From an uncultured virus (IMG/VR IMGVR_UViG_3300017963_000250) (taxonomy: Duplodnaviria > Heunggongvirae > Uroviricota > Caudoviricetes), in IMG/VR virus record IMGVR_UViG_3300017963_000250: 64,000 nucleotides of DNA. One strand, 5' to 3'. Positions within the stretch are counted from its first letter, which is position 1. Each line of letters opens with the position of its first letter. The position numbers were made by a program, and so were the translations under genes. Shown here one piece after another: positions 11,509-63,998 of the stretch. The notes below the pieces were generated by a model. That model did no database searches. It saw nothing but the letters and a program-made list of their open reading frames with translations, and was not told the origin of the DNA.

Positions 11509-12261
11509 ATGCCGGATTACAACAACGTACAACTGATGGGGAGACTTACCCGTGACGTCCAGATCAGGCCGACACAGTATGGCTCTATCGGGTCGTTTGG
11601 GCTCGCGGTGAACAGACGCGGCAAAGGGCCGAACGCGAAAGAGGAGACCACATTCGTCGATATCACCGTTTTCGCGAAGCTGGCGGATGTATGCGCGCAG
11701 TACCTCCGCAAAGGCAGTCCGGTGTTCGCGGCGGGGCACCTCAAGCTCGAACAGTGGAACGACCGAACTACCGGCGAGAAACGTAGCAAGCTCGGCGTGG
11801 TAGCCGAAACGGTCCAGTTCCTCGACCGACCACAGGGACAAAGTAACGGTCAGTACCAGGCACAAAACTGGCAGCAACAACCGAACCAGAACTACCCGAC
11901 ACCGCCGCCGCCGCCAGAACAGCATAAAATCCAGGACCAACAACCGCCGGCACAACCGCAGGTACGCGAGTCGATCATGCCCGCGCCCGACACGAACCAG
12001 CCCGGATGGGAAAAAAACCAGGTCGGGTTCAGAAAAGCTGGCGGACACACATGGGGCGAACTCGCCAATGACGTCCAATTGCCGGACGGGACTACCGGAC
12101 GCGATTACCTGACCAAATTGTCGTACTGGAAAGACCAACCGAATATCGCCAGGGTCGCGCAGTGCGCGCTCGACCTGGTCGACGGACAGACCGCAACGCA
12201 ACCGCCAGACCCCGGACCGCCGGCGATGGATGAGCCCGGTGTCGACGAACCGCCGTTTTAG
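11509..12261 (+). CDS. ssb: Single-stranded DNA-binding protein with extended C-terminal region
   Basis: NNVQLMGRLTRD, FGLAVNRR, YLRKGSPV, acidic C-terminal tail DEPPF. Confidence 0.92.
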   Translation: MPDYNNVQLMGRLTRDVQIRPTQYGSIGSFGLAVNRRGKGPNAKEETTFVDITVFAKLADVCAQYLRKGSPVFAAGHLKLEQWNDRTTGEKRSKLGVVAETVQFLDRPQGQSNGQYQAQNWQQQPNQNYPTPPPPPEQHKIQDQQPPAQPQVRESIMPAPDTNQPGWEKNQVGFRKAGGHTWGELANDVQLPDGTTGRDYLTKLSYWKDQPNIARVAQCALDLVDGQTATQPPDPGPPAMDEPGVDEPPF

Positions 12262-12268
12262 GGGAAGA

Positions 12269-12363
12269 TTCACCGCAGAGGGCGCAGAGGACGCAGAGGG
12301 GAGAGAAGACTTGGGGGAAACTTTTTGGAAAAAGTTTCCCCCAAACCCCCTTCAAAAACTTTA
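12269..12363 (+). repeat. Dispersed REP-like intergenic repeat, copy A
   Basis: TTCACCGCAGAG(G)GCGCAGAG..GCAGAG plus GGGGAAACTTTTT..AAAAAGTTTCCCC palindrome plus CCCCCTTCAAAAACTTT. Confidence 0.85.
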
Positions 12364-12379
12364 TTGTGGAGGAGAACAA

Positions 12380-13262: not shown

Positions 13263-13362
13263 CAAAGTTTTTTGAAGAGGGTTTTGGGGATGGTTTTTTT
13301 CCAAAAAAGCATCCCCAAATTCTTCCTCCCCCCTCTGCGTCCGCTGCGTCTCTGCGGTGAAC
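13263..13362 (-). repeat. Dispersed REP-like repeat, copy B (inverted)
   Basis: Reverse complement of the copy A modules. Confidence 0.8.
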
Positions 13363-13398
13363 TCTTAATTTTTTTTCCTGCACAGAAAGGAGCAAAAC

Positions 13399-13626: not shown

Positions 13627-14011
13627 CGCCAGAAGGAAGATGACCGGCAGGGTCGGGCGGTACCCGATCGGTATCCCGGCCGGCGCTGAGATCGTTTCGG
13701 TCTATTTCGAGGTGACCGACAAACTCGTCGATAGCGAGAACCGTATAGTTGATTGGAACGCCCGGTTCGTCGGTGGACTATCCAACGTCTTATGCGTAGG
13801 CCGGTCCGGCCGAACCAGGTACAAAGGCTACTGCCTGTTCATACCGGAATCGTTCGTCCCGCTCTCTCTGATACGTAATTTTTCGGTGGACGATATAGTC
13901 ACCAAGGACGAGAAACTGGACGAGACGACCGATATTACCGGCATAGAGGTGTATTGCCGGTCGCCGGTAGAAAGCGGCGAGATCCAGTTCCGCTGCGTGT
14001 TTAAGGTGTAG
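13595..14011 (+). CDS. Stand-alone beta-sandwich domain related to the 17.8-20.3 kb C-termini
   Basis: IGIPAGAEIVSVYFEV...WNARFVGG...TTDITGIEV...ESGEIQF. Confidence 0.55.
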   Translation: MNDAPKMKIYSARRKMTGRVGRYPIGIPAGAEIVSVYFEVTDKLVDSENRIVDWNARFVGGLSNVLCVGRSGRTRYKGYCLFIPESFVPLSLIRNFSVDDIVTKDEKLDETTDITGIEVYCRSPVESGEIQFRCVFKV

Positions 14012-14013
14012 GA

Positions 14014-14178
14014 ATTCACCGCAGAGGCGCAGAGAGCGCAGAGGGAAGAGAAGACTTGGGGGAAACTTTTTGTAAAAAGTTTCCCCCAAACCCCCTTCAA
14101 AAACTTTATTGTGGGTAATAAAAATAAAAAAAATTATCTTCCTCTCCCCTCTGCAATCTCTGCGCCTCTGCGGTGAAT
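14014..14178. repeat. Dispersed REP-like repeat, copies C (forward plus inverted)
   Basis: Forward unit 14014-14108; inverted CTCTGCGCCTCTGCGGTGAA unit at about 14140-14178. Confidence 0.85.
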
Positions 14179-14214
14179 CTCCCCATTCCCCTTCCCTACA
14201 AGAAAGGATATATC

Positions 14215-15772: not shown

Positions 15773-15789
15773 TTCAGGGGAGGGGGAGA

Positions 15790-15898
15790 TTCACCGCAGA
15801 GGCGCAGAGAGCGCAGAGGAAAGAGAAGAATTGGGGGAAACTTTCCAAAAGCTCTCCCTGATTTTTCTTCTCTCTCCTCTGCGTCTCTGCGGTGAATT
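15790..15898. repeat. Dispersed REP-like repeat, copies D (inverted pair)
   Basis: TTCACCGCAGAGGCGCAGAG ... CTCTGCGTCTCTGCGGTGAA. Confidence 0.85.
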
Positions 15899-22511: not shown

Positions 22512-22599
22512 TTGACCGCAGAGGGCGCGGAGGACGCAGAGAAGACCTGGGGGAAACTTTTTGTAAAAAGTTTCCCCCAGACCCCCTTCAAAAACTTTG
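22512..22599 (+). repeat. Dispersed REP-like repeat, copy E
   Basis: Same modules as copy A. Confidence 0.85.
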
Positions 22600-22615
22600 A
22601 TGTGGAGGACGAGAG

Positions 22616-26904: not shown

Positions 26905-27555
26905 AATTTTATCCTCCTATAAAAATTATACTCAGACCAATTTCTATATTCTATAAAAAAAATAGGGGGAAAATAAAAAACCTTCTTTTAAAAGGAATAG
27001 ACAGTATACAACTTTTGGTTTAGAAGGAGACGAGTAAATGGAATACATTAACTTCAAGGACAGGCTTTTAAAAAAGATAGGAGACCATCTTGAGGAGCAT
27101 GACAAGTTTCCGAATACGGTATATATACCGAATCACGAAAAAATTGAGATCATGAAGCTGACAGCCGATGAAGTGGGAAGCGAGGTAGCCGGGCAGATAT
27201 TCCGATATGGCCCCACGACCTGGAAAATTTGTTCGGTCTAAAAATTATTTGGGACGCAGAAACTTTCGAAGTAAAACGGGTAAAAACGGGGACATGTCCA
27301 TGGTAAAGCTTGAAGCACGAAAAGAGAATGGTGGCATATGGATATCCGAGGGTTCGTTCGAACACCTGCTGAATTGTCTCGCTAACCAGCAGTTCGTTGG
27401 CGAGCGTCCACCATGTGGCGACGCTGTCGCGATGTCGCCAGAGGAATATGCAACAATACATCAGGAAATGCAAGACGTGATCGACGATTTTTATCGCCAG
27501 TGCATGGGGTTTTTCCATGGCAAAAAATAATTCCTTGAAAAATTAAATTTTATCC

Positions 27556-27583
27556 TTGACATTTCAATTTTATACCGTACAAT
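27556..27583 (+). promoter_or_regulatory. Promoter of the omegaRNA/array locus
   Basis: TTGACA (27556), 16 bp, TACAAT (27578); predicted TSS about 27588-27590. Confidence 0.75.
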
Positions 27584-27587
27584 AAAG

Positions 27588-27812
27588 GTGGACTATGCGG
27601 GGGTAACCCCGAGGTGAATCAGCTTCAGTGCTTCGGCACTACGTTATCTGGGGATATGACACCCGCGTGTGCTTCTCCAGCATTCGGCACTGTCGTCCCT
27701 GAGTAAACAGACCTGTGTTGCAGGGTCAGTCGAGGGGACGCGACAAACCCGGATAACATTGGCGAGGAGAGACGCCGAAAGGCGCGTTACAAGCCCCGAA
27801 AGGGGCTCTTTT
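27588..27812 (+). ncRNA. omegaRNA (HEARO-like IscB scaffold) with a 5' anti-repeat, acting tracrRNA-like
   Basis: Characteristic omegaRNA segments CAGCTTCAG, CTACGTTAT, ATGACACC, TGCTTCTCCAGC, CACTGTCG, TAAACAG, ATAACATTGGCGAGGAGA, GCGTTACAAG. Ends in AGCCCC-GAAA-GGGGCT + T-run. iscB lies downstream. Confidence 0.85.
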
Positions 27813-27852
27813 TATAGGGGGACGTCATTGCGTGGCAGCGTCACTGATAAGA

Positions 27853-29128
27853 GTTTGTCGGCAACCGTAGCCCGAGCGGCCAAGCATCCGAGTTCACAGC
27901 AAGCCATAGTTCGGTGGCAATAATAATAGTTCGCAGCAAAACATAGTTCGACAAAAACGATGGGTATTTCTTCCATCACTGGCTCGCAGACTTAGCTATG
28001 CGTGTTCATCAACAACCATAGTTCACAGTATAAAACGGTGGTCGTCGAATAAGGGATCAGAGTTCACCGCAACCATAACTCCACGACAATAGCTTGCACC
28101 GGCGAGTTCACCAACAACCATAGTCCGACTGATTGAACGTCATATAAGTTTGCCGTCAACCATAGTCCACAGCCAGTTCACAACAACTATAGTTCAAAGA
28201 CTTGCTCATAGCAGTCCAATTTTTCTGTGGTTCGCCACAAACCATAGTCCTAATATAAAGAGAAGGTGGAAATTCGCCACAAACCATGGTCCGGTATGCA
28301 AAAAAGTGTTGACAGCGATATTGAATTGCAGCCGTTCACGGCAAGCCATAGTACAATTAAAGGCTCCGAGTCCACAGTAACCATAGTCCAACTAAAACAT
28401 GGCAGCGCCGGCAGGAACCTTTAATGATGTCCCGTTCACAGCAAACCATAGTCCAAAATGCAAAAAAGAGAAACACCGAAACATGCGCTCACCGCAACCA
28501 AGTCCAAAAATTTGTAACTGCTGTTCACGGCGAATCATGGTCCAGCGAGGATTACGAAGGATGGGGTTCGCCGCAACCCATAGTCCGACAGTTAGCCAGA
28601 TGCATTTAAGTTCACAGCGAATCATGGTCCAGGCACAATGCGACGGATTTGGTTCACAGCGAACCATAGTCCAAGATGTATAGAAGTTTGTTCACCATTA
28701 ACCATAGTTCAACAAAAACAGAGTATGGCTAACATCATGTTCACAGCAAAACATAGTCCAACAAAAGCAATGGCACCAGATGTTGGTTCGCCGCAAAACA
28801 TAGTTCAACAAAGCTCCTTTTGGCCTAGCAATGCGTTCACAGCGTACCATAGTTCAACAGAAACGTGAGAGAATTACCCTCTCTCTATCAATCAAGAGTA
28901 TGTCGTTCACGGCGAACCATAGTTCAACAGGAACAGTTCAAGTCATCGTATCTGTAAAGTCCTTAATCGAGTTCACGGCAACCCATAGTTCAACAAAAAC
29001 TTTACGCGGTGTAGGTTCTCATGAAAAAATTGCGTTCACAGCAAACCATAGTTCAACAAAAACTGGAGAATTGTGTGAATTGCAGCATATGCGCCCGGGT
29101 TCACAGCAAACCATAGTTCAACAAAAAC
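27853..29128 (+). CRISPR. Degenerate CRISPR-like array, about 26 repeats, consensus GTTCACAGCAAACCATAGTTCAACAAAAAC
   Basis: Repeat starts at 27853, 27892, 27929, 28004, 28062, 28106, 28148, 28176, 28230, 28272, 28334, 28370, 28434, 28487, 28523, 28566, 28610, 28652, 28690, 28739, 28786, 28835, 28905, 28971, 29034, 29099, with unique intervening sequences. Confidence 0.85.
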
Positions 29129-29164
29129 CCCCAGTAAAATGGGGGTTTTACCAAAGGAGGTAAA

Positions 29165-30517
29165 ATGACAGTATTTGTCCTCAACAAAAACAAGAAACCA
29201 CTGATGCCCTGCACCGAGCATCGGGCGAAAAAACTGATGGAGTCCGGACGCGCAGTCGTTCATAAGTGTTTCCCCTTTACCCTGCGAATCAAAACGTGTA
29301 TAGACGCGGAAGCGCCGGCCCTGCGCCTCAAGATATGTCAGGGCGCGAAACGTACCGGCATGGCGGTCTTGAACGGTAACAAGGTGATATTTCTGGTCGA
29401 GATCGGGCATAAAAACCCCCACATGAACATCCACAGCAGGGCATCCCTCCGACGCGGTCGCCGGCACCGCAAGACGAGGTACCGACCGGCCAGGTTCAAG
29501 AACCGGCGCAAACCGAAAGGGTGGCTACCGCCCTCCCTCTCATGTAGGGTCGACCAGATAATGCACGCAGTCAAAAAGATCCGCGATAGTCTGCCGATCG
29601 CCGAGCTCTCCGTCCAGACCGCCAAGTTCGACACGCAAAAGATGCACAATTCGGAGATATCCGGCGTGGAGTACCAGCAGGGCAAACTCGGCGGATACGA
29701 GGTACGCGAGTATCTCCTGGAAAAATGGGGCAGGAAATGCGTATACTGTGGAAAGAAAGACGTCGAACTCGGGATCGACCATATCGTACCGAAAGCACGC
29801 GGTGGATCGAATAGCGTCGAGAACCTGACGATCGCCTGCAAGACGTGCAACAGAAAAAAGGGCCGGAAAACGGCAGCGGAGTTCGGGCACCCGGAGGTGC
29901 TCGCCAAAGCGAAAAAACCGCTGAAAGAGGCGGCGTTCATGAACGCGATCCGGTCACGCGCCTACATGAGATTGCTCGATGTCTTCCTGCCTCAACGCAT
30001 AGAGGTCGGGACCGGCGCTATGACCAAGATGAACAGGATAACCGCCGGCCTGCCGAAACTCAAATGCCTCGATGCCTGCTGTGTCGGTGAAAGCACGCCG
30101 GAGAAACTGGATTTTACCGGTGTCAATTACTACCAGACATGGGATTACGTCGGACGCGGTAACCGCCAGATCTGCCAGCCGATAAACAAGGACGGATACC
30201 CGGTAAGGCACCGCAGCAGAAAAAAGTCGGTCGACGGCATCCAGACCGGCGACTTCGTCCTCGGCATGAAAAAAAACGGCGACAAGATGACCGGCCGGGT
30301 CAATATCCGCGCGTCGGGGAATTTCTACATACCGGTCAAAGGCGGCAAACGGTTCACGTTCACCCGCCGTAATACCCGCCTCATTCAGCACGGAGACGGA
30401 TGGCGATACGGCAAAAAGAAATTGCCAGAGGGGGTACAACCTGGTAATCGCAGGAGACAACACCATATATGCATAGAGAATGAGGGGGGAACGCCTCCAA
30501 GATTTACACCTCTGTGA
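29165..30517 (+). CDS. iscB: IscB RNA-guided endonuclease (PLMP, split RuvC, bridge helix, HNH); RuvC apparently inactivated
   Basis: N-terminal VFVLNKNKKPLMPC; Arg-rich bridge helix RRGRRHRKTRYRPARF.NR; HNH CVYC...DHIVPKARGGSNSVENLTIACKTCNRKKG; SD AAGGAGG. Confidence 0.93.
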   Translation: MTVFVLNKNKKPLMPCTEHRAKKLMESGRAVVHKCFPFTLRIKTCIDAEAPALRLKICQGAKRTGMAVLNGNKVIFLVEIGHKNPHMNIHSRASLRRGRRHRKTRYRPARFKNRRKPKGWLPPSLSCRVDQIMHAVKKIRDSLPIAELSVQTAKFDTQKMHNSEISGVEYQQGKLGGYEVREYLLEKWGRKCVYCGKKDVELGIDHIVPKARGGSNSVENLTIACKTCNRKKGRKTAAEFGHPEVLAKAKKPLKEAAFMNAIRSRAYMRLLDVFLPQRIEVGTGAMTKMNRITAGLPKLKCLDACCVGESTPEKLDFTGVNYYQTWDYVGRGNRQICQPINKDGYPVRHRSRKKSVDGIQTGDFVLGMKKNGDKMTGRVNIRASGNFYIPVKGGKRFTFTRRNTRLIQHGDGWRYGKKKLPEGVQPGNRRRQHHICIENEGGTPPRFTPL

Positions 30518-30934
30518 TTTTTTAAAGAACAGGAGCGTACATGGCAGAGTATATGGCAGAGTGCAGTTATTGTGGTCGCGAATATACAGAGAGCTACTGT
30601 ATCTGTGTTGGTGCGCAGATGCAACAGTTTTATACCGGCATTGTTCAGGACGACATTCGGCATCTAACAGCAGCCCTTGATAGGTTGACCTCTGTCCTTG
30701 AATATGGCAGGGCAAAAAAATGACCAGAAATTGTCGGAGGGGGGGGGTGATGGAGCCGTACAATGACGGGGCTATATCGCTTCTGCACGAACTTTTGGGG
30801 TATATCCACGATGATATATATGTGAAAGTTCCTCGTGGTGCAGTCAAAAAGGGGCAAAACATCAGGTTGACGAGGCATAACGATTTACTTGTTTTCGCCG
30901 ACAAAGTACGTGTTTTTCTGGATAAGGACAAGAT

Positions 30935-31498
30935 ATGACCAGATATATCGGGTATGCCAGGGTGAGCACCACGGACCAGGATCTTACGATGCAACTGGAC
31001 GAGCTCGAAGAGGTCGGGTGCAAGAAGATTTTCTCCGACAAGGTCAGCGGCGCGAAAGAGAAACGGCCCGGCCTGAACAAATGCCTCGCTTATCTCAAGG
31101 AGGGCGACACCCTCGTAGTATGGCGACTCGATCGGTTGGGGCGGTCGATGTTGCACCTCGTCCAAACCGTAAACGAGCTCAAAGAGAGGGGCGTCGCTTT
31201 CAAGTCGATCCGGGATGGCGCGATCGACACCAATACCGCGTCGGGCGAACTCGTCTTCAACATATTCTCGGCATTAGCGCAATTCGAACGGTCGATCATA
31301 CGCGAACGGACAATGGCCGGTCTCAAAGCGGCGCGGGCCAGGGGCAGGATCGGCGGCAGGAGGCCGATCACGGCGAAAGACCCGAAAGTGCGGGTGGCGA
31401 AAAAGATGCACGAGAACCACGAGATGAGCATTAAGAGTATTTGCAATACTCTTAAAATATCTCAGGCGACGTTTTATCGGTATCTGAAATTGAAATAG
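30935..31498 (+). CDS. Serine recombinase, resolvase/invertase family, with C-terminal HTH
   Basis: IGYARVST.DQ, GDTLVVWRLDRLGRS, ERT.AGL.AARARGR.GGR, ATFYRY. Confidence 0.93.
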   Translation: MTRYIGYARVSTTDQDLTMQLDELEEVGCKKIFSDKVSGAKEKRPGLNKCLAYLKEGDTLVVWRLDRLGRSMLHLVQTVNELKERGVAFKSIRDGAIDTNTASGELVFNIFSALAQFERSIIRERTMAGLKAARARGRIGGRRPITAKDPKVRVAKKMHENHEMSIKSICNTLKISQATFYRYLKLK

Positions 31499-31507
31499 GG
31501 AGGGGGA

Positions 31508-31550
31508 TTCACCGCAGAGGCGCAGAGGGCGCAGAGATAAGAGAAGAATT
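31508..31550 (+). repeat. Dispersed REP-like repeat, copy F (partial)
   Basis: TTCACCGCAGAGGCGCAGAGGGCGCAGAG. Confidence 0.75.
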
Positions 31551-31588
31551 AGGGGATGCTTTGACCGGTAGAGGGCAAAAGGAGGTAG

Positions 31589-32008
31589 ATGATGGCGAGA
31601 ATCAGGGTTCCAATTATGATCAGGTTGATCAGGGCAGCGAATAAAACGACCCAGAAGCAACTTGGAGAAGAGTTGACGGTAACGGCACAGACGGTGTCGA
31701 ACTGGGAGTCAGGCAAAACCACCCCACCAGCGAGAAAGTTGGAAAAATTGGTGAAAATGTTTGAAAGCATCAGTATATATGAAGACGAAAAGGGTGTGAC
31801 GTCTAGCAAAAAATCAGAGAAATGTGTCTGTTGTGGTAACGCCGAGCAAATTGGGAAGTCTAAATATTGTGGAACGTGCCTTGGAATTCGCGGCGAACTA
31901 ATAAGGTATACCAGATGGTTACATTATAGCAGGCGTGGGATACTTGAAGTGGGCACAGTGGTTGAGATGTACCTCGGGAGCAAAAAAAGATATGGGGTTG
32001 ACTATTGA
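31589..32008 (+). CDS. XRE HTH regulator with C-terminal Zn finger
   Basis: TQKQLGEELTVTAQTVSNWESGKTTP; CVCC...CGTC. Confidence 0.8.
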   Translation: MMARIRVPIMIRLIRAANKTTQKQLGEELTVTAQTVSNWESGKTTPPARKLEKLVKMFESISIYEDEKGVTSSKKSEKCVCCGNAEQIGKSKYCGTCLGIRGELIRYTRWLHYSRRGILEVGTVVEMYLGSKKRYGVDY

Positions 32009-33742: not shown

Positions 33743-34318
33743 ATGAACAGTGATACTGAATATTCAAAATGTCCAGTTTGTGGAGAAAAAACGACACTGC
33801 TGGAGAAAGAAGAAACTGAACGCTTCCTATATGGGGTTGGTAAAGACGCGGCGAAGCTGTCGGTTGTGGTGCCGGTGGTTTCTTGCTCTGAATGTAAGTT
33901 TGAGTTTACCGATTATCGGGCAGAGGAGATAAAGGATATTGCGATAGAAAGCCATCTTTCACTAATGGAATCTTTTGGTGAAACTGAGAGAGTGCTTATT
34001 CGTAAGTGTCTAAACCTCGATCGGGACGCGCCAACATTGATGTATTTCGGTCGAATTGTGGCGAAACTGTACAGGTTTTTGGTAACCGACGACCCCGGTT
34101 GGAGGGTGCGACTGGTTATAGAGGAAAAACGTCAGATAGAGGAAAGTGAGCGCGACACGGGAGATCGAAGAAAAGAGGCGTTGCCGGTACACAAACTGGT
34201 TGTCAAAATGGTAGATCTGCTTGACAAGAAGGCCAACAAAAAGATAGAGAAAATGGTAAATACACTATATGAAGGGAGCCAAAATGAGCGAAATGAGGAA
34301 ACGCAGGGAGGAGAATAA
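33743..34318 (+). CDS. Protein with YgiT/MqsA-type Zn finger
   Basis: CPVCG...VPVVSCSECKFEF. Confidence 0.55.
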   Translation: MNSDTEYSKCPVCGEKTTLLEKEETERFLYGVGKDAAKLSVVVPVVSCSECKFEFTDYRAEEIKDIAIESHLSLMESFGETERVLIRKCLNLDRDAPTLMYFGRIVAKLYRFLVTDDPGWRVRLVIEEKRQIEESERDTGDRRKEALPVHKLVVKMVDLLDKKANKKIEKMVNTLYEGSQNERNEETQGGE

Positions 34319-34718
34319 GCAGTTGCAGACAGAGCTTGAACCGTTGCTGGAGAAGGTGAAGGGGCAACATATAATTCAATGTTGTTGCGACTGTCGTGGC
34401 AATGTGGGCCTGGTCACGGATATCTACCGATGCCTGGAGATCGTCCAGAAACAACTTGGCAACGTTGTTCAGGAAAAGGATGAAGCGGATGAAGCGTGTA
34501 TTGAATGCCAATTGGGCAGAGACAGTGAGTGTAGCGACTGTCGGGACGCATTTGAGTCACTCAGAAGCGATCTCGCCGAAGAGAAGGGACGCAAGAAAAG
34601 ATGGAAAAAGCGCGCATTGAAATTGCAGAGAAAATATGACCTTGTGAAAATGGAACGCGAAGATGGGCGCAGCAAATGCCCAGAATGCGGTGATGCATCT
34701 TATCTGACGGAAAAGTAA
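34284..34718 (+). CDS. Coiled-coil/Cys protein, tandem paralog 1
   Basis: MSEMRKRREENKQLQTELEPLLEKVKG shared with the next gene. Confidence 0.65.
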   Translation: MSEMRKRREENKQLQTELEPLLEKVKGQHIIQCCCDCRGNVGLVTDIYRCLEIVQKQLGNVVQEKDEADEACIECQLGRDSECSDCRDAFESLRSDLAEEKGRKKRWKKRALKLQRKYDLVKMEREDGRSKCPECGDASYLTEK

Positions 34719-34741
34719 TAACAATCAGGAAGGGAGCCAAA

Positions 34742-35083
34742 ATGAGCGAAATGAGGAAACGCAGGGAGGAGAATAAGCAGTTGCAGACAGAGCTTGAACC
34801 GTTGCTGGAAAAGGTGAAGGGGCCGTCGGTTATGCCTTGCGACTGTCATGGCCATGTGAGCCTGGTCACCGATCTATTTCGGTGCCTGGAGATAGTCCAG
34901 AAGCAACTCAGCAACGTCTTGTTCGAGTTGAACGAATGGCGGGGCGAATGCGAAAATCTGGAATGGGCGATCGAGTTGCTTAAGCGCGATGTTGCCGAAC
35001 AGAAGGAGCGCAAGAAAAGATGGAAATGGCGCGCATTGAAACTCGGATACAAGGGGAAAACCGATGACCGAACCGAATCTTAA
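34742..35083 (+). CDS. Coiled-coil/Cys protein, tandem paralog 2
   Basis: Near-identical 5' DNA and RBS to the 34284 gene. Confidence 0.65.
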   Translation: MSEMRKRREENKQLQTELEPLLEKVKGPSVMPCDCHGHVSLVTDLFRCLEIVQKQLSNVLFELNEWRGECENLEWAIELLKRDVAEQKERKKRWKWRALKLGYKGKTDDRTES

Positions 35084-38055: not shown

Positions 38056-38967
38056 ATGCAAGGAGTTTCTGTGAAAACAATGCATCTTTTTGCCGGTATA
38101 GGAGGAGGCCTTTATGCAGACCTCATTTTGGGACATGAGCCTGTCGTCGCCGTCGAGCAAAACCATTACTGTTGCAAAGTCTTGCGACAGCGAGCCCGAG
38201 AAGGATGGTTCCCCAGCCTGCAAGTGTGGGAAGGGGACATCCGCATGTACGATCCATCCGAGCACAAAGGCAGAGTGGATTCGATCGCAGCGGGCTGGCC
38301 TTGCCAGGACATTAGCGTTGCTGGAAGAGGAGCAGGGCTTGACGGTGAACACAGCGGACTCTTTTTCGAAGTCGTCAGGATCGCCGGCGTATTACGACCA
38401 CGCTACATCTTCATGGAAAACTCACCAGCTATCGTTACTAGGGGACTCGACAGGGTTCTCGGATCGCTGGTCGAGCTCGGGTATGATTGCCGATGGACGG
38501 TATTATCCGCAGCGAATTCGACTTCCGCGCAAATACGTGCCCGGTGGTGGTGCCTTGCCACTTTACCCGACGCCGACAGTGACAGACAGCAAAGATCGGA
38601 CATATCAAGTAGCGAACGGAAGGAAGTTGCCGACATTGGCGGGAGCAGCCAGAGGGTTCTGGCGAGCAGTGAAAGCATCGGATGCGCAAACCGGTTGGAT
38701 AATGGCAGACGACAAACATGCAAGCCTGAGAGATCAGGTAAAAATGTATCCAGCTCCGGCAGCACGGGATCACAGGAGCGGGAAGGGCAGGAAAGACAAC
38801 GGGCACACACCACAACTGCCGGAGGTGATTGGTGGGCAATTGAGCCCGGAATGGGTCGAGTGGCTAATGGGGTTCCCAACCGGCGCGACCGAATTGAGGG
38901 ATTAGGTAACGCGCAGGTGCCGGCACAGGCGGCGCTTGCATGGACAATACTCAGCAAAAAGGGGTAA
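38056..38967 (+). CDS. DNA (cytosine-5) methyltransferase, large subunit (motifs I-VIII and X)
   Basis: HLFAGIGG, AGWPCQD, FMENS, R.RWW, LGNAQVP; true start may be a few codons downstream. Confidence 0.88.
   Translation: MQGVSVKTMHLFAGIGGGLYADLILGHEPVVAVEQNHYCCKVLRQRAREGWFPSLQVWEGDIRMYDPSEHKGRVDSIAAGWPCQDISVAGRGAGLDGEHSGLFFEVVRIAGVLRPRYIFMENSPAIVTRGLDRVLGSLVELGYDCRWTVLSAANSTSAQIRARWWCLATLPDADSDRQQRSDISSSERKEVADIGGSSQRVLASSESIGCANRLDNGRRQTCKPERSGKNVSSSGSTGSQEREGQERQRAHTTTAGGDWWAIEPGMGRVANGVPNRRDRIEGLGNAQVPAQAALAWTILSKKG
38114..38905 (+). CDS. Overlapping alternative-frame MTase small subunit (TRD-like region plus motif IX)
   Basis: +1 frame: LYPTPT, MYPAPAARDH, GGQLSPEWVEWLMGFPTGAT (motif IX), which the main frame lacks. 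Start uncertain. Confidence 0.7.
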   Translation: MQTSFWDMSLSSPSSKTITVAKSCDSEPEKDGSPACKCGKGTSACTIHPSTKAEWIRSQRAGLARTLALLEEEQGLTVNTADSFSKSSGSPAYYDHATSSWKTHQLSLLGDSTGFSDRWSSSGMIADGRYYPQRIRLPRKYVPGGGALPLYPTPTVTDSKDRTYQVANGRKLPTLAGAARGFWRAVKASDAQTGWIMADDKHASLRDQVKMYPAPAARDHRSGKGRKDNGHTPQLPEVIGGQLSPEWVEWLMGFPTGATELRD

Positions 38968-38969
38968 AC

Positions 38970-39653
38970 ATGTTTATTTTGCATAACCCAAGAGAATTCA
39001 GTTTTACGTCCGTATCCCCAAAAATAGTGAAAGTAGCGAGGAAGCTGCATGTGCTCGATCTGTTTTGCGGTGCAGGCGGGGTCTCCATGGGGCTATACGA
39101 GGCGGCACACGGTCTTGTCAATATCACCGGTATCGACATCGACAGGCAACCGGACTACCCGTTCAACTTCATACAGGAGAATGTCTATAAAATATCGCCC
39201 CAGTACCTGAAGGGTTTCGACTTCATCTGGGCCTCGCCACCATGCCAGAGATACAGTTTCGCGACCAGGAAAGCGCGCAGAGCATTGCATCCAGATTCGA
39301 TTCCGCCGACAAAAAGACTTCTGCGTCACGCCACTGTGCCATGGGTTATAGAAAATGTACGTGACGCGCCAATCCGCAAAGATCTCATGCTTTGCGGGTC
39401 GTTTTTCGGGCTCGGGGTGATAAGGCACCGGTACTTCGAAATAGACGGTTTCAAGATACCGAAGTTCAAAGCGAAATGTAAACACCCGGAGAAGTTCTTT
39501 ACTGTTGCGGGAGGAGGAACCGGCACCGTGAAAGAATGGCAGAACGCGATGGGTATTTTTCATACGAAGAATCGCAAGTCTCTGCGCGAGTCGATCCCGC
39601 CGGCGTATAGCAGGTTCATTTTCTCGTATTACCTGGAGATGCTTTTGTCTTGA
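38970..39653 (+). CDS. Second, compact C5 DNA methyltransferase-like protein
   Basis: LDLFCGAGG, ASPPCQ, IENV, RHRYFE, ESIPPAYS. Confidence 0.85.
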   Translation: MFILHNPREFSFTSVSPKIVKVARKLHVLDLFCGAGGVSMGLYEAAHGLVNITGIDIDRQPDYPFNFIQENVYKISPQYLKGFDFIWASPPCQRYSFATRKARRALHPDSIPPTKRLLRHATVPWVIENVRDAPIRKDLMLCGSFFGLGVIRHRYFEIDGFKIPKFKAKCKHPEKFFTVAGGGTGTVKEWQNAMGIFHTKNRKSLRESIPPAYSRFIFSYYLEMLLS

Positions 39654-46203: not shown

Positions 46204-46234
46204 CTATATCTCCTTTCTTGTAGGGGAGGGGGGC

Positions 46235-46456
46235 TTCACCGCAGAGGCGCAGAGAACGCAGAGATAAGAGAAGACTTGGGGAATGCTTTTTTGTAAAAAA
46301 CCATTCCCCAAACCCCTTTCAAAAAACTTTAACGAAGGAAAAGGACGTCCCTGTCCTCACATCAAAGTTTTTGAGGGGGTCTGGGGGAACTTTTTCCAAA
46401 AAGTTCCCCCAGTTTCTTTTCTTGACTCTGCGTACTCTGCGTCTCTGCGGTGAATT
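46235..46456. repeat. Dispersed REP-like repeat, copies G (inverted pair)
   Basis: Forward unit 46235-46330, reverse unit about 46365-46456. Confidence 0.85.
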
Positions 46457-46467
46457 CTTTTTCCCCA

Positions 46468-59172: not shown

Positions 59173-60260
59173 CAGTCGAAGTGTTTCTGTATCTCTATGG
59201 GGTATGGGAAATTCTTTACGAATTCCATAAGCAACCCGAACGTGGTGTCGGCGACAGTGCTCGCGATCTGGCGCGAGAAGAACACCCGCACCACGATCTT
59301 GTCGTACTTCTTGCCGAGAGAGTTCAGGTCGTTCTCGAACTGCTTCATCTCGTAGGCGACCATCTTGTTCTGCGCCTTGTCGAAAATGAAGGCGTTCACC
59401 CCGTCGTGAAACACGGTCATCACGGCGGCGGCGATGCCGGCACCGAAGTGTTTCTGTATCTCTATGGGGTATGGGAAAGTCTTTACGAATTCCATAAGCA
59501 ACCCGAACGTGGTATCAGCGACGGTACTCGCGATCTGGCGCGAGAAAAACACCCGTACCACGATCTTGTCGTACTTCTTGCCGAGGTAGTTCAAGTCGCC
59601 CTCGAATTGTTTCATCTCGTAGACAACCCTCTTATTCTGCGCCTTGTCGAAAATGAAGGCGTTCACCCCGTCGTGAAACACGGTCATCACGTAAAGCGGT
59701 TGTTTGCGCAGAAACCGGTTCCACGCCCACCACCCGACACCGGCAATGCCGGCACCGAGCGCGATCTTGGTCCAGCTAACGCCGAACGGGTTACGGCGGA
59801 TCAACCTGTCCGCCTGCTTTTTGGGGTATCTTCTCCGTATCGCTTTTTTCATGTCATCGTCCATCTTCCAGAACATCTGCCGGCGGTGCGATCTCAGCCA
59901 GGACTTCGCCTTCGACTTCGTCCACCGCTGGTACGGTTTCAACTGTATCGTCCGGCCCTGGTGCGTGATCGACCTACCGGTGGGGAACACCAGGCCCTGC
60001 ACCCTGGTCGCGCGTCCGCCCTCGTACTTTGTCGACGGTTTTGCGCCGTACGGCGACCCGAATCGGAGCAGGATCGGGCCGTGCTCCTTGTGCTTCAACC
60101 CTACATACTTGCTCCGGAACCACCGTTTGCCGGCGCGTTCCTGGAATATTTCCTTGTCCTTCAGTGTATAGTGTACCGAACGCGGCTTCTCGGCCCACCG
60201 GCCCTCATCGGCGAGCATATCCAACATCGCCGCCATACCGATCACCGGTTGCGGAGGCAT
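59172..60260 (-). CDS. Basic N-terminal domain, TM, and tandemly duplicated C-terminal domain
   Basis: RRNPFGVSW then TM; about 89-aa internal duplication. Confidence 0.65.
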   Translation of the reverse strand: MPPQPVIGMAAMLDMLADEGRWAEKPRSVHYTLKDKEIFQERAGKRWFRSKYVGLKHKEHGPILLRFGSPYGAKPSTKYEGGRATRVQGLVFPTGRSITHQGRTIQLKPYQRWTKSKAKSWLRSHRRQMFWKMDDDMKKAIRRRYPKKQADRLIRRNPFGVSWTKIALGAGIAGVGWWAWNRFLRKQPLYVMTVFHDGVNAFIFDKAQNKRVVYEMKQFEGDLNYLGKKYDKIVVRVFFSRQIASTVADTTFGLLMEFVKTFPYPIEIQKHFGAGIAAAVMTVFHDGVNAFIFDKAQNKMVAYEMKQFENDLNSLGKKYDKIVVRVFFSRQIASTVADTTFGLLMEFVKNFPYPIEIQKHFD

Positions 60261-63395: not shown

Positions 63396-63998
63396 CTATC
63401 TACGTCCGTAATACCCGCGCGGCATCCACGGCGCGTATTTGTACCTTCTGGCGTTACGGAGAAGTTCCTCGTCGAACTGCTGCATGTACCCGCCGTAGTA
63501 GGAACCGAGCGATGCGCCCCGACGCGGCAGCGTCAGGTAATCGCCCATACCCTGGTTTTTCTTGTCCGGGAGGGTGAGGTAGTCGCCCATGCTGTTCTTG
63601 TCCGGCAGGGTGAGGTAGTCGCCCATGCTGTTCCGACGCGGCAGGGTCAGGTAGTCGCCCATGTTGTTGTTCTGGCGCGGCAGGGTCAGGTAGTCGCCCA
63701 TGTTGTTCCGGCGCGGCAGGGTCAGGTAATCGTCCATCCCGACCGGAGCGACGTAGGGGGTGCCCCACTTCTTGCGGATGCACCCGATCGCCTGTACCGT
63801 CTTCAGGACGCCGACGATCCCGGCACCGACCTGGAGCGCGAAGGTGTGCCTCGGAGCCAGCCCCGGCGAGAAGTAGTCGAGGGCCTTCCCGACACCATAG
63901 GAAAGGGCGGCGACGCTGCCCCAGGTGGTGGCGACCGGCACCATCTCGTCTACGACATGGAGCACGTTCGCTCTCTGGGTCACGTTCTTGCGGAGCAT
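63396..63998 (-). CDS. Membrane protein with six M(G/D)DYLTLP repeats (5' end may lie outside the window)
   Basis: Two hydrophobic helices then tandem repeats. Confidence 0.65.
   Translation of the reverse strand: MLRKNVTQRANVLHVVDEMVPVATTWGSVAALSYGVGKALDYFSPGLAPRHTFALQVGAGIVGVLKTVQAIGCIRKKWGTPYVAPVGMDDYLTLPRRNNMGDYLTLPRQNNNMGDYLTLPRRNSMGDYLTLPDKNSMGDYLTLPDKKNQGMGDYLTLPRRGASLGSYYGGYMQQFDEELLRNARRYKYAPWMPRGYYGRR

What the first reader, a model, noticed from the sequence alone, without database searches (positions are those of the whole stretch)
29165..30517. IscB has a dead-looking RuvC but an intact HNH: a natural nickase
Seen: RuvC-I reads LRLKICQGAKRTG where IscBs typically have L.LKIDPGSK.TG (D>C). 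RuvC-II reads LSVQTAKFD where E is expected (E>Q). RuvC-III reads LPKLKCLDA where LPK.H..DA is typical (H lost, D kept). The HNH (DHIVP...N...CN) and Zn cysteines are intact and the ORF is uninterrupted. Inference: it nicks only the target strand. That could suit attack on replicating or ssDNA competitors, recombination priming or gene silencing, and it would be a compact natural nickase of tool interest.
Basis: partly seen in the sequence, partly recalled or inferred. Interest (0 to 1): 0.85.

Follow-up and report, generated by a model that had tools for sequence, protein, structure and literature searches.

The report
RuvC-dead IscB with split guide-RNA array
A phage-like element carries a small Cas9-ancestor enzyme (IscB) that has lost one of its two DNA-cutting sites, and its guide RNA appears to be split into a scaffold gene plus an array of about 25 short guide units, like a primitive CRISPR locus that nicks rather than cuts DNA.

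Summary
ORF 29165-30517 (+, 450 aa) is an intact IscB (Pfam RRXRR 2e-58 plus HNH). Aligned to OgeuIscB, it reads C58, Q151 and K300 where the RuvC catalytic D61, E193 and H340 stand. D303, the HNH His/Asn residues and all four zinc cysteines are kept.

The HEARO/omega RNA (27567-27776) lies 1389 nt upstream of the ORF, against 44-85 nt in 13 comparison loci. It has its own promoter and terminator and lacks the 5' strands of its first two helices. The gap holds 25 degenerate direct repeats (27892-29128). Their two conserved blocks can pair with the orphaned 3' strands in 343 of 350 cells.

Best reading (about 0.5): a domesticated, transposase-less IscB that nicks only the target strand, guided by crRNA-like units pairing with a tracrRNA-like omega scaffold.

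Neither feature is unprecedented. RuvC-dead, HNH-intact IscBs arose several times (one is noted in PMC10910872), and CRISPR-associated IscBs are known. The combination is a new variant. No targets, RNA data or relatives of the array were found.

The parts
27556..27583 (+). Sigma-70-like promoter TTGACA-16 nt-TACAAT. It would start the tracr-like RNA at about 27590.
   Evidence: 11 of 12 hexamer matches, the best of 4 sites in 27300-30700. It occupies the place where canonical omega RNAs carry the 5' strands of helix P1 and hairpin 1a.
27567..27776 (+). HEARO / omega RNA scaffold (Rfam RF02033). I read it as a tracrRNA-like RNA running about 27590-27815.
   Evidence: 89.3 bits (gathering threshold 83), E 2.9e-18. 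cmscan marks non-standard pairs in the 5' strands of the first two helices. This is the lowest score of the 14 HEARO hits seen (99-165 bits in the 13 comparison loci).
27590..27619 (+). Anti-repeat region: GGACTATG (27590-27597, 3' strand of hairpin 1a), hairpin 1b (27598-27611) and GTGAAT (27614-27619, 3' strand of P1).
   Evidence: It is the only place on the + strand of the 64-kb window where partners for both repeat blocks occur in the right order.
27792..27815 (+). Intrinsic terminator: the omega RNA's last hairpin followed by a T-run.
   Evidence: In the three aligned comparison loci (L001, L003, L011) the same hairpin is followed by the ribosome-binding site and the start codon.
27892..29128 (+). 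Array of 25 direct repeat units. Each has block 1 (GTTCAC), a 5-7 nt linker, block 2 (CATAGTYC) and a weak AAC(AAAAAC) tail. Unconserved spacers of 7-54 nt lie between unit cores. The last five units are the best conserved, with 63-70 nt periods.
   Evidence: All units are on the + strand. No long ORF other than repeat-derived frames lies here.
29128..29149 (+). Hairpin CCCCC-N-GGGGG plus TTTT between the last repeat and the ribosome-binding site. It resembles the terminal hairpin of canonical omega RNAs.
   Evidence: The scan lists it on the - strand; on the + strand it has only 4 T's, below the scan's cut-off.
29165..30517 (+). IscB homologue, 450 aa: PLMP/RRXRR N-terminus, RuvC with C58/Q151/K300/D303, intact HNH (D205-H206, N220, N229, four Cys), and a TAM-interaction-like C-terminal barrel.
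30541..31498 (+). Two small ORFs (60 and 72 aa, no family) and a serine invertase/resolvase (30935-31498) directly downstream with overlapping stops and starts. They may be co-transcribed. I do not claim they belong to the system.
   Evidence: Resolvase PF00239 at 8.8e-50; phrog_125 DNA invertase at 2.7e-73.

Best explanation
This is a domesticated IscB module in a phage-like mobile element, with no transposase found beside it. The protein keeps the whole IscB architecture and a complete HNH site. It has lost three of the four RuvC catalytic residues, so an R-loop it forms would be cut only on the guide-paired (target) strand.

Its omega RNA has been split. The scaffold is an independent transcription unit with its own promoter and terminator, and it lacks the guide and the 5' strands of helices P1 and 1a. 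Those 5' strands are supplied in trans by each of 25 repeat units in the 1.2-kb array between the scaffold gene and iscB. The roughly 16 nt upstream of each unit serve as the guide. The arrangement has the same topology as Cas9 crRNA:tracrRNA and would give a multi-guide nickase.

What is shown: the residue states, the RNA gene, the array, the pairing potential, and the unusual layout. What is inferred: transcription and processing of the array, assembly of the RNP, nicking, and the biological role. I guess the role is nicking of rival mobile elements or host DNA.
For: Protein. The catalytic substitutions are described under the observation check. The query keeps 114 of the 132 columns that are at least 95% conserved in its 119 relatives. 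Of its 18 deviations, 4 lie at or next to RuvC catalytic positions (58, 59, 151, 300). The frame is open over 450 codons despite a terminal branch of 0.93 against a median of 0.16, which argues for selection on the protein. D61A-type IscBs are nickases (PMC11666462 passages).

RNA layout. The HEARO end lies 1389 nt from the ATG. In the 13 of 15 comparison loci that have a HEARO hit, the distance is 44-85 nt. The promoter scores 11 of 12 and is followed by a terminator. The cmscan alignment flags mispairs exactly in the 5' strands.

Repeat pairing.
- 343 of 350 unit-by-position cells can pair with GGACTATG / GTGAAT.
- The three variable block positions (A/G, A/G, C/T) are wobble-tolerant. Block positions carry 1.2-2.0 bits except the C/T site at 0.8, against about 0.1 bit for the 10 nt upstream.
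- The partner arrangement occurs once on the + strand of 64 kb, and in 83 of 20000 dinucleotide shuffles of the RNA.
- With the 40-nt 5' domain of the scaffold, 21 of 25 units give an MFE dimer holding all 14 predicted pairs. None of 500 shuffled units does.

Precedent. A CRISPR-associated IscB (DelIscB) uses a repeat/anti-repeat ncRNA upstream of its ORF with 16-nt guides (PMC12660989 passages).
Against: There are no RNA data: no listed run holding this DNA is RNA. No target was found for any guide, in the window, in the phage or plasmid collections, or for one 20-mer in viral contigs.

The array is degenerate and irregular, with spacers of 7-54 nt. No cas1 or cas2 was seen among the 85 ORFs scanned. 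The best-kept repeats are promoter-distal, the reverse of a typical CRISPR array.

Against the longer 74-nt scaffold fragment, duplex energies are only weakly better than for shuffled units (z about 0.2 to -2.4 for 24 units, one at -4.5).

The locus is a singleton. The nearest protein is 55% identical. The repeat occurs elsewhere only in a 99.99% identical copy of the same element. No comparative test of the RNA pairing is therefore possible. The long branch and the lowest HEARO score also fit relaxed constraint.
Confidence: 0.5

Rival explanations
1. Decaying relic. A captured IscB element is losing function: RuvC has gone first, the omega RNA is truncated, and the repeats are debris of duplications. 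Nothing here is used.
For: The query has the longest terminal branch among its relatives (0.93 against a median of 0.16) and the most deviations at conserved columns (18 against a median of 1). Its HEARO score is the lowest seen (89.3 against 99-165 bits). The repeats are degenerate and irregularly spaced. It is a singleton in all collections searched.
Against: The 450-codon frame is open, with a strong ribosome-binding site, despite about 45% amino-acid divergence from every relative. All HNH and zinc residues and 114 of 132 conserved columns are kept. Within the repeats, conservation is concentrated in the two pairing blocks, and variation falls mainly on wobble-tolerant sites. The scaffold has a near-consensus promoter and a terminator.
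Confidence: 0.17
2. Single-guide IscB plus an unrelated repeat region. The HEARO RNA works as an ordinary omega RNA or is a leftover. The 25 repeats are DNA-level sites, such as iterons, partition sites or transcription-factor arrays of the mobile element, and their match to the RNA is coincidence.
For: Direct repeats of about 21 bp at irregular spacing in a non-coding 1.2-kb stretch are typical of plasmid and phage iteron or centromere regions (established knowledge). Duplex energies against the longer RNA fragment are not striking.
Against: The required two-block partner arrangement occurs once in 64 kb, at the position homologous to the orphaned 3' strands of P1 and 1a. It appears in 83 of 20000 shuffles. 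21 of 25 units fold into the predicted junction against 0 of 500 shuffles. The array sits between the omega RNA and its ORF, co-oriented with both. In the 15 comparison loci nothing lies there.
Confidence: 0.15
3. RNA-guided binder without cleavage. The complex only binds DNA, as a repressor or roadblock like TnpB-derived TldR or Cas12m, and the HNH site is retained but not licensed to cut.
For: Nuclease-dead exaptations of the sister family are documented (TldR, Cas12m; passages of PMC13565253). Twenty-five guides would suit multi-site regulation.
Against: Every HNH catalytic and zinc-binding residue is intact, which is not expected if cleavage were dispensable. The known repressors have lost their only nuclease site.
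Confidence: 0.1

Closest known systems
Canonical IscB-omega RNA (OMEGA) systems, e.g. OgeuIscB (PDB 7xht, 7utn, 8csz)
   Same: Same domain order (PLMP/RRXRR, split RuvC with inserted HNH, C-terminal TAM-interaction barrel). The HEARO-type omega RNA is on the same strand upstream. phmmer gives 3.5e-25 and Foldseek 6.6e-18.
   Different: The RuvC residues D, E and H are replaced. The omega RNA is 1389 nt from the ORF instead of 44-85 nt, has its own promoter and terminator, and lacks its 5' strands and guide. No TnpA was found among the 85 window ORFs scanned.
CRISPR-associated IscB, e.g. DelIscB (PMC12660989; first described by Altae-Tran et al. 2021, which I could not read)
   Same: An IscB-sized effector has, upstream of its ORF, an ncRNA region with repeats, spacers and an anti-repeat. 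Guides are about 16 nt. It is read as an intermediate between OMEGA and type II CRISPR (passages).
   Different: DelIscB is an active double-strand nuclease, whereas this protein has a dead-looking RuvC. Here the repeats are short (a 21-nt core), degenerate and irregularly spaced, and they pair as two short helices of a three-way junction rather than one long duplex. I did not compare the sequences of the two systems.
RuvC-inactivated, HNH-active IscB next to an inactivated Cas12 and an HTH protein (Altae-Tran et al. 2023, PMC10910872, passages)
   Same: A natural IscB with an inactive RuvC and an active HNH, interpreted as a nickase.
   Different: No Cas12-like ORF lies next to this gene. An HTH_3 protein at 31589-32008 lies beyond the invertase and a dispersed repeat. 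Here the partner is a guide array.
Phage-encoded type II-C Cas9 with dead RuvC and active HNH (same paper, 'biomimicry' section)
   Same: A virus-borne member of the Cas9/IscB family that keeps only the HNH cut, with a tracrRNA-like gene nearby.
   Different: That protein is a full-size Cas9 without an array, linked to an SNF2 helicase, and is proposed to borrow host crRNAs. This is an IscB with its own array.
Engineered IscB nickases (D61A; PMC11666462 passages, citing Han et al. 2023)
   Same: The same functional state is predicted: the RuvC-I carboxylate is removed and HNH is retained, giving a target-strand nick.
   Different: Those are single engineered substitutions. Here three natural substitutions (C, Q, K) sit on a long evolutionary branch.
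IsrB, the natural OMEGA nickase (PDB 8dmb; PMC9581776, search listing and abstract start only)
   Same: A natural single-strand-cutting relative guided by an omega RNA. phmmer gives 3.1e-14.
   Different: IsrB lacks HNH. By recall, it cuts the non-target strand with RuvC. This protein is the mirror image.
TranC, transposon-CRISPR intermediates of TnpB (mentioned in PMC13565253, passage)
   Same: The same evolutionary step, a transposon nuclease acquiring CRISPR-like guide RNAs, in the sister family. That the step involves splitting of the omega RNA is my recall. The passage read says only that TranC is a transposon-CRISPR intermediate that evolved from TnpB several times independently.
   Different: A different protein family (TnpB/Cas12), with active nucleases.

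Membership tests
IscB (OMEGA effector) | N-terminal PLMP/RRXRR domain | tested here: met
   PF14239 at 2.1e-58 over residues 3-173. The PLMP motif is at residues 12-15.
IscB (OMEGA effector) | HNH domain inserted in a split RuvC, followed by a C-terminal TAM-interaction domain | tested here: met
   [quoted passage not shown] The top Foldseek hits are IscB structures.
IscB (OMEGA effector) | RuvC catalytic tetrad D-E-H-D | tested here: not met
   The query reads C58, Q151, K300, D303. The tetrad is canonical in 114 of the 119 closest relatives.
IscB (OMEGA effector) | HNH catalytic His/Asn residues and the zinc-binding cysteines | tested here: met
   D205-H206, N220, N229 and C192/C195/C225/C228 are all as in the relatives.
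IscB (OMEGA effector) | Cognate omega RNA (HEARO) directly upstream, with guide and scaffold in one RNA | tested here: inconclusive
   HEARO is present at 89.3 bits, above the gathering score. It lies 1389 nt away, and the 5' strands of P1 and 1a do not pair in cis.
IscB (OMEGA effector) | IS200/IS605 context (TnpA, transposon ends) | tested here: not met
   No Y1 transposase appears among the 85 ORFs of the window scanned against Pfam at E<=1e-5. Transposon ends were not searched for. The rest of the contig could not be searched.
CRISPR-associated IscB / type II-like CRISPR locus | Array of direct repeats separated by unique spacers next to the effector gene | tested here: met
   There are 25 co-oriented units at 27892-29128. 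The spacers are unconserved (about 0.1 bit) and differ from one another on inspection of the list. Repeats are degenerate and the spacing is irregular except for the last five units.
CRISPR-associated IscB / type II-like CRISPR locus | Repeat:anti-repeat complementarity with a tracrRNA-like RNA | tested here: met
   343 of 350 cells are pairable. 21 of 25 units give MFE dimers with all 14 pairs, against 0 of 500 shuffles. The partner arrangement is unique on the + strand of the window. This is in silico only.
CRISPR-associated IscB / type II-like CRISPR locus | Adaptation genes (cas1, cas2) | tested here: not met
   No Cas1 or Cas2 family appears among the 85 ORFs scanned. By recall, the CRISPR-associated IscB loci of Altae-Tran 2021 also lack them.
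CRISPR-associated IscB / type II-like CRISPR locus | Processed crRNAs bound by the effector | not testable with these tools
   No RNA run is listed as holding this DNA.
IsrB (natural OMEGA nickase) | Absence of the HNH domain, with an active RuvC | tested here: not met
   HNH is present and intact, and RuvC is substituted.

The most novel reading that the evidence does not exclude
This is an independent, virus-borne transition from OMEGA to a CRISPR-like system. The omega RNA has split into a tracrRNA-like gene and a Cas1/Cas2-free array of 25 mini-crRNAs with guides of about 16 nt, and these arm an HNH-only IscB. The element would then run a multiplexed, RNA-programmed nicking system against host or rival DNA. 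It would be a natural 450-aa target-strand nickase with a natural two-part guide.
Probability: 0.4. Interest if true: 0.8.

Novelty: new variant of a known kind. Interest (0 to 1): 0.66.

Why it matters
If the module works as read, three things follow.
1. It would be a natural example of the RNA-splitting step thought to lead from transposon omega RNAs to crRNA plus tracrRNA. It would be caught in a form that needs only two short helices, and no adaptation genes were found beside it.
2. It would show what a mobile element does with a nick-only RNA-guided enzyme. The recurrent loss of RuvC in several IscB lineages suggests this state is selected, and its biology is essentially unstudied.
3. It would offer a compact natural nickase with a dual-RNA, multiplexable guide format.

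If it is a relic, it is still a useful record of how such arrays can arise by duplication.

Tried and rejected
- Whole-genome searches: no genome is held for this window. The 84-kb metagenome record behind L047 is not held either.
- Relatives of the protein in viral contigs: none.
- The repeat in viral contigs: none.
- The repeat in metagenome contigs: 11 loci. One (L047) is the same element at 99.991% over 10,621 nt. The other 10 are single matches with no other similarity to the window at E<=1e-5.
- Genome-contig scan with the K-E-K-E protein P0116: 43 loci. Only P0116's own locus (L001) has that pattern, and it has a canonical omega RNA and no array.
- Self-targets of the 25 16-nt guides in the window: none with 2 mismatches or fewer. 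There are 13 hits at 3 mismatches, about what chance gives.
- Array against the phage and plasmid collections at E<=10: only hits with E of 0.1 to 5, on unrelated hosts, which I treat as chance.
- One 20-nt guide against viral contigs: no match. I did not scan the other guides.
- Expression: no RNA holder is listed.
- Two DNA metagenome runs hold the stretch with 0 differences over 8 kb. They may be its source, so they give no information on variation.
- RNAcofold against a 74-nt scaffold fragment: weak z-scores. I replaced it with the 40-nt domain test.
- Query in the K-E-K-E clade: rejected. That clade is monophyletic (support 0.985) without the query. P0136, which reads S-Q-K-D, is not sister to the query either.
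- Altae-Tran et al. 2021 could not be read. What I say of it is from citing papers or recall.
- No paper in the searches describes an IscB with both a dead RuvC and a guide array.
Full report
**1. The gene and the substitutions**

The ORF listing gives one uninterrupted frame at 29165..30517 on the + strand: 450 aa with an ATG start. An AAAGGAGG ribosome-binding site lies at 29153-29160. Pfam finds RRXRR (PF14239, 2.1e-58, residues 3-173) and three HNH models over residues 192-241.

Against the sequences of solved structures, the best matches are TbaIscB (9k30, 5.5e-36) and OgeuIscB (7xht/7utn, 3.5e-25). Nineteen distinct sequences match at E<=0.01. The printed alignments put query C58 on D61, Q151 on E193, K300 on H340, D303 on D343 and H206 on H247 of OgeuIscB. 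Passages of PMC9640706 name exactly these as the RuvC and HNH catalytic residues.

The AlphaFold2 model, built from a 20-row alignment, has mean pLDDT 67 with RuvC core blocks at 86-93. It places C58 and Q151 at the ends of strands 53-58 and 145-151, and K300/D303 in a short helix. Foldseek's first ten hits are IscB or IsrB structures.

**2. How unusual the substitutions are**

The search for homologous proteins scored 8000 candidates, and 7648 passed E<=0.001. The best non-self hit is 55% identical. In a MAFFT alignment of the query with the 119 listed relatives:
- 114 carry D-E-H-D.
- Five (P0002, P0037, P0058, P0070, P0116) share K-E-K-E.
- One has D-E-H-N.
- The query alone has C-Q-K-D.

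The HNH His and the four cysteines are invariant in all 120. The query keeps 114 of the 132 columns that are at least 95% conserved in the other 119. Its 18 deviations (median for the set: 1) include positions 58, 59, 151 and 300, and many of the rest are conservative.

In a FastTree of these 120 sequences, the K-E-K-E group is a clade (support 0.985) that does not include the query. The query sits on a terminal branch of 0.93 against a median of 0.16.

A full HMMER pass over 1.84 billion representatives at 50% identity returned the best 150. Aligned with the query (151 rows):
- 95 rows read DEHD with HNH residues H-N-N.
- 18 representatives that align at all four positions are not DEHD.
- 10 of those 18 lack the RuvC-I Asp: P0136 S-Q-K-D, P0153, P0156, P0158, P0165, P0175, P0192, P0196, P0212 and P0265. 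I did not check each alignment by eye.

In a tree of the 115 rows covering at least 85% of the query, these lineages are scattered. Only P0156, P0212 and P0175 group together. RuvC loss with HNH retention is therefore recurrent in IscB.

The literature I could search has one explicit mention. [quoted passage not shown] The same paper describes a phage type II-C Cas9 with the same pattern (PMC10910872, passages).

**3.

Rfam finds one family in the 64-kb window: HEARO (the IscB omega RNA) at 27567-27776 on the + strand, at 89.3 bits against a gathering score of 83.

I scanned 15 IscB loci from genome contigs. Thirteen have a HEARO hit, at 99-165 bits, and it ends 44-85 nt before the start of the protein match (coordinates). 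L004 and L032 have none above threshold. In the window the distance is 1389 nt.

The cmscan alignment marks non-standard pairs in the 5' strands of the first helix (P1) and of the first hairpin (1a). Aligned with three canonical omega RNAs, the window carries a TTGACA-16-TACAAT promoter where they have those strands (27556-27583, 11 of 12 matches). That promoter would start the RNA at about 27590.

From there the scaffold is conserved, down to the terminal hairpin. In the three aligned comparison loci (L001, L003, L011) that hairpin is followed by the ribosome-binding site and the ATG. Here it is followed by a T-run, which makes it an intrinsic terminator (27792-27815). A second, similar hairpin plus TTTT sits at 29128-29149, just before the real ribosome-binding site.

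**4. The array**

The repeat finder reports overlapping families of 12-16 direct copies between 27891 and 29134 and no inverted repeats. A regex for the second block with up to 2 mismatches gave 33 matches in 27850-29165. I kept the 25 that have a GTTCAC-like hexamer 11-13 nt upstream and dropped 8 that do not.

Each unit has block 1 (GTTCAC), a 5-7 nt linker, block 2 (CATAGTYC) and a weak AAC(AAAAAC) tail. Gaps between unit cores are 7-54 nt. The last five units have 0-2 mismatches to the 24-nt consensus and periods of 63-70 nt.

Information content is 1.76-2.0 bits at 11 of the 14 block positions. It is 1.2, 1.47 and 0.8 bits at the three positions that vary A/G, A/G and C/T. The ten positions upstream carry about 0.1 bit.

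Block 2 is complementary to GGACTATG (27590-27597) and block 1 to GTGAAT (27614-27619). These are exactly the orphaned 3' strands of hairpin 1a and helix P1, with hairpin 1b between them.

Evidence for the pairing:
- Of 350 cells (25 units by 14 positions), 343 can form a Watson-Crick or G-U pair, and the three variable positions are wobble-tolerant.
- The arrangement 'partner of block 2, then 4-40 nt, then partner of block 1' occurs once on the + strand of the whole window. It occurs 13 times on the - strand, presumably the reverse complements of array units (not checked individually). It appears in 83 of 20000 dinucleotide shuffles of the 229-nt RNA.
- With the 40-nt 5' domain of the scaffold, the MFE dimer of 21 of 25 units contains all 14 predicted pairs. 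None of 500 shuffled units reaches 12 pairs. An RNA extended upstream to 27540 does not form these helices in cis.
- Against a longer 74-nt fragment, the energy gain over shuffled units is weak (z about 0.2 to -2.4 for 24 units, one at -4.5). The thermodynamic argument alone is therefore not strong.

The order 5'-guide, P1 strand, 1a strand-3' on the array strand matches the canonical omega RNA. It also has the same topology as Cas9 crRNA:tracrRNA.

**5. Context**

The window looks like a phage or another large mobile element. I scanned 85 ORFs against Pfam and 68 against PHROGs. Most have no family. The hits include an AEP-type primase, a RuvC-like resolvase, two C5 methyltransferase ORFs, a PAPS-reductase-like protein, a Ser/Thr kinase and a Kelch protein. 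A serine invertase at 30935-31498 follows iscB and two small ORFs. No capsid or terminase was seen, so 'phage-like' is provisional.

No Y1 transposase, Cas1, Cas2 or Cas12 family was hit. The nearest K-E-K-E relative (L001, a Pelotomaculum MAG) sits among conjugation-type genes, with a canonical omega RNA 47 nt upstream and no array.

**6. Targets and expression**

I found no target. There are no matches with 2 mismatches or fewer for any 16-nt guide elsewhere in the window. Only chance-level hits appear in the phage and plasmid collections. One 20-mer has no match in viral contigs.

The same DNA is held without any difference by two DNA metagenome runs, one from sediment and one from seawater. 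Either may be its source. No RNA run is listed.

**7. Interpretation**

The frame is open, the HNH and zinc residues are intact, and 86% of conserved columns are retained on a branch nearly six times the median length. Together these argue that the protein is under selection. The three RuvC changes remove three of the four catalytic residues, including the Asp and Glu that lie beside the Mg2+ density in the OgeuIscB structure. Engineered D61A IscBs are nickases.

I therefore read the protein as an HNH-only, target-strand nickase, and the locus as a split-omega-RNA, multi-guide system. The precedents are CRISPR-associated IscBs such as DelIscB, with its repeat/anti-repeat ncRNA and 16-nt guides. 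Independent IscB-CRISPR associations have also been reported (PMC10734277 passages), as have the TranC intermediates of TnpB (PMC13565253 passage).

Two points remain unexplained. The best-kept units are at the promoter-distal end. And it is unclear how an array grows when no Cas1 or Cas2 was found. Duplication is my guess. The duplicated terminal hairpin fits a rearrangement of an originally canonical omega RNA-ORF junction.

The main rivals are a decaying relic, an unrelated DNA-level repeat region, and a binder that does not cut. I put the combined reading at about 0.5.

**8. Verdict**

The nickase inference is reasonable but untested, and it is not unique to this gene. The locus as a whole is a new variant of a known kind: RuvC-dead IscB, plus a tracrRNA-like omega scaffold, plus a 25-unit guide array, in a phage-like element. 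It is a good candidate for a simple expression and nicking experiment.

Noticed in passing
window 12258-12369, 13305-13366 (-), 14003-14114, 14121-14182 (-), 15778-15844, 22517-22605, 31496-31562, 46223-46334, 46398-46459 (-): A dispersed intergenic repeat of about 65-110 nt occurs in both orientations. It has a CGCAGAG-rich part and, in most copies, a strong hairpin (GGGGGAAACTTTTT...AAAGTTTCCCCC). One copy directly follows the invertase gene. Metagenome contigs of both runs break or branch at 31502-31562. It could be a regulatory element, a miniature mobile element or a recombination site.
   Followed up: partly
proteins P0002, P0037, P0058, P0070, P0116 (locus L001:3365-4648): This is a monophyletic IscB clade with a coherent K-E-K-E pattern at the four RuvC positions (D to K, H to K, D to E) and an intact HNH. 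In L001 it has a canonical omega RNA 47 nt upstream and lies among conjugation-type genes. It is a second, independent natural RuvC-altered lineage.
   Followed up: partly
proteins P0136 (S-Q-K-D), P0156/P0212/P0175 (Y-A-P-x / A-I-S-H), P0158 = L032:703-2055 (Y-A-P-N, Archaeoglobales MAG), P0153, P0165, P0192: Further IscB-like representatives lack RuvC catalytic residues but mostly keep the HNH His/Asn residues. They are scattered on the tree. Their genomic contexts could not be fetched. L032 has no HEARO hit above threshold.
   Followed up: partly
window 29165-30517, residues 58, 127, 301: The query has cysteines at C58 and C127, where at least 95% of the 119 relatives have D and A, and at C301 beside the conserved C305/C306. 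P0002 also has a Cys at 301. A new metal or disulfide site filling the dead RuvC pocket is conceivable. This is pure speculation.
   Followed up: no
L001:2917-3039 and L001:4813-4936: About 120 nt (81-84% identical), including a ribosome-binding site and the start of an ORF, is repeated on both sides of the omega RNA-IscB unit of the Pelotomaculum MAG. The element seems to sit between two diverged copies of the same gene start.
   Followed up: no
window 59177-59691; 63554-63737; 34271-34365 and 34729-34823: There is a tandem 267-nt duplication (93% identical), a run of 36-39-nt tandem repeats, and a 99% identical 95-nt duplicate 458 nt apart. All apparently lie inside predicted ORF spans, suggesting repeat-containing or recently duplicated genes.
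   Followed up: no
window 38056-38967 and 38940-39653: Two adjacent, overlapping ORFs both hit the C-5 cytosine DNA methylase family. The second matches only the N-terminal part of the profile. This is either a split or frameshifted methyltransferase or two separate genes.
   Followed up: no
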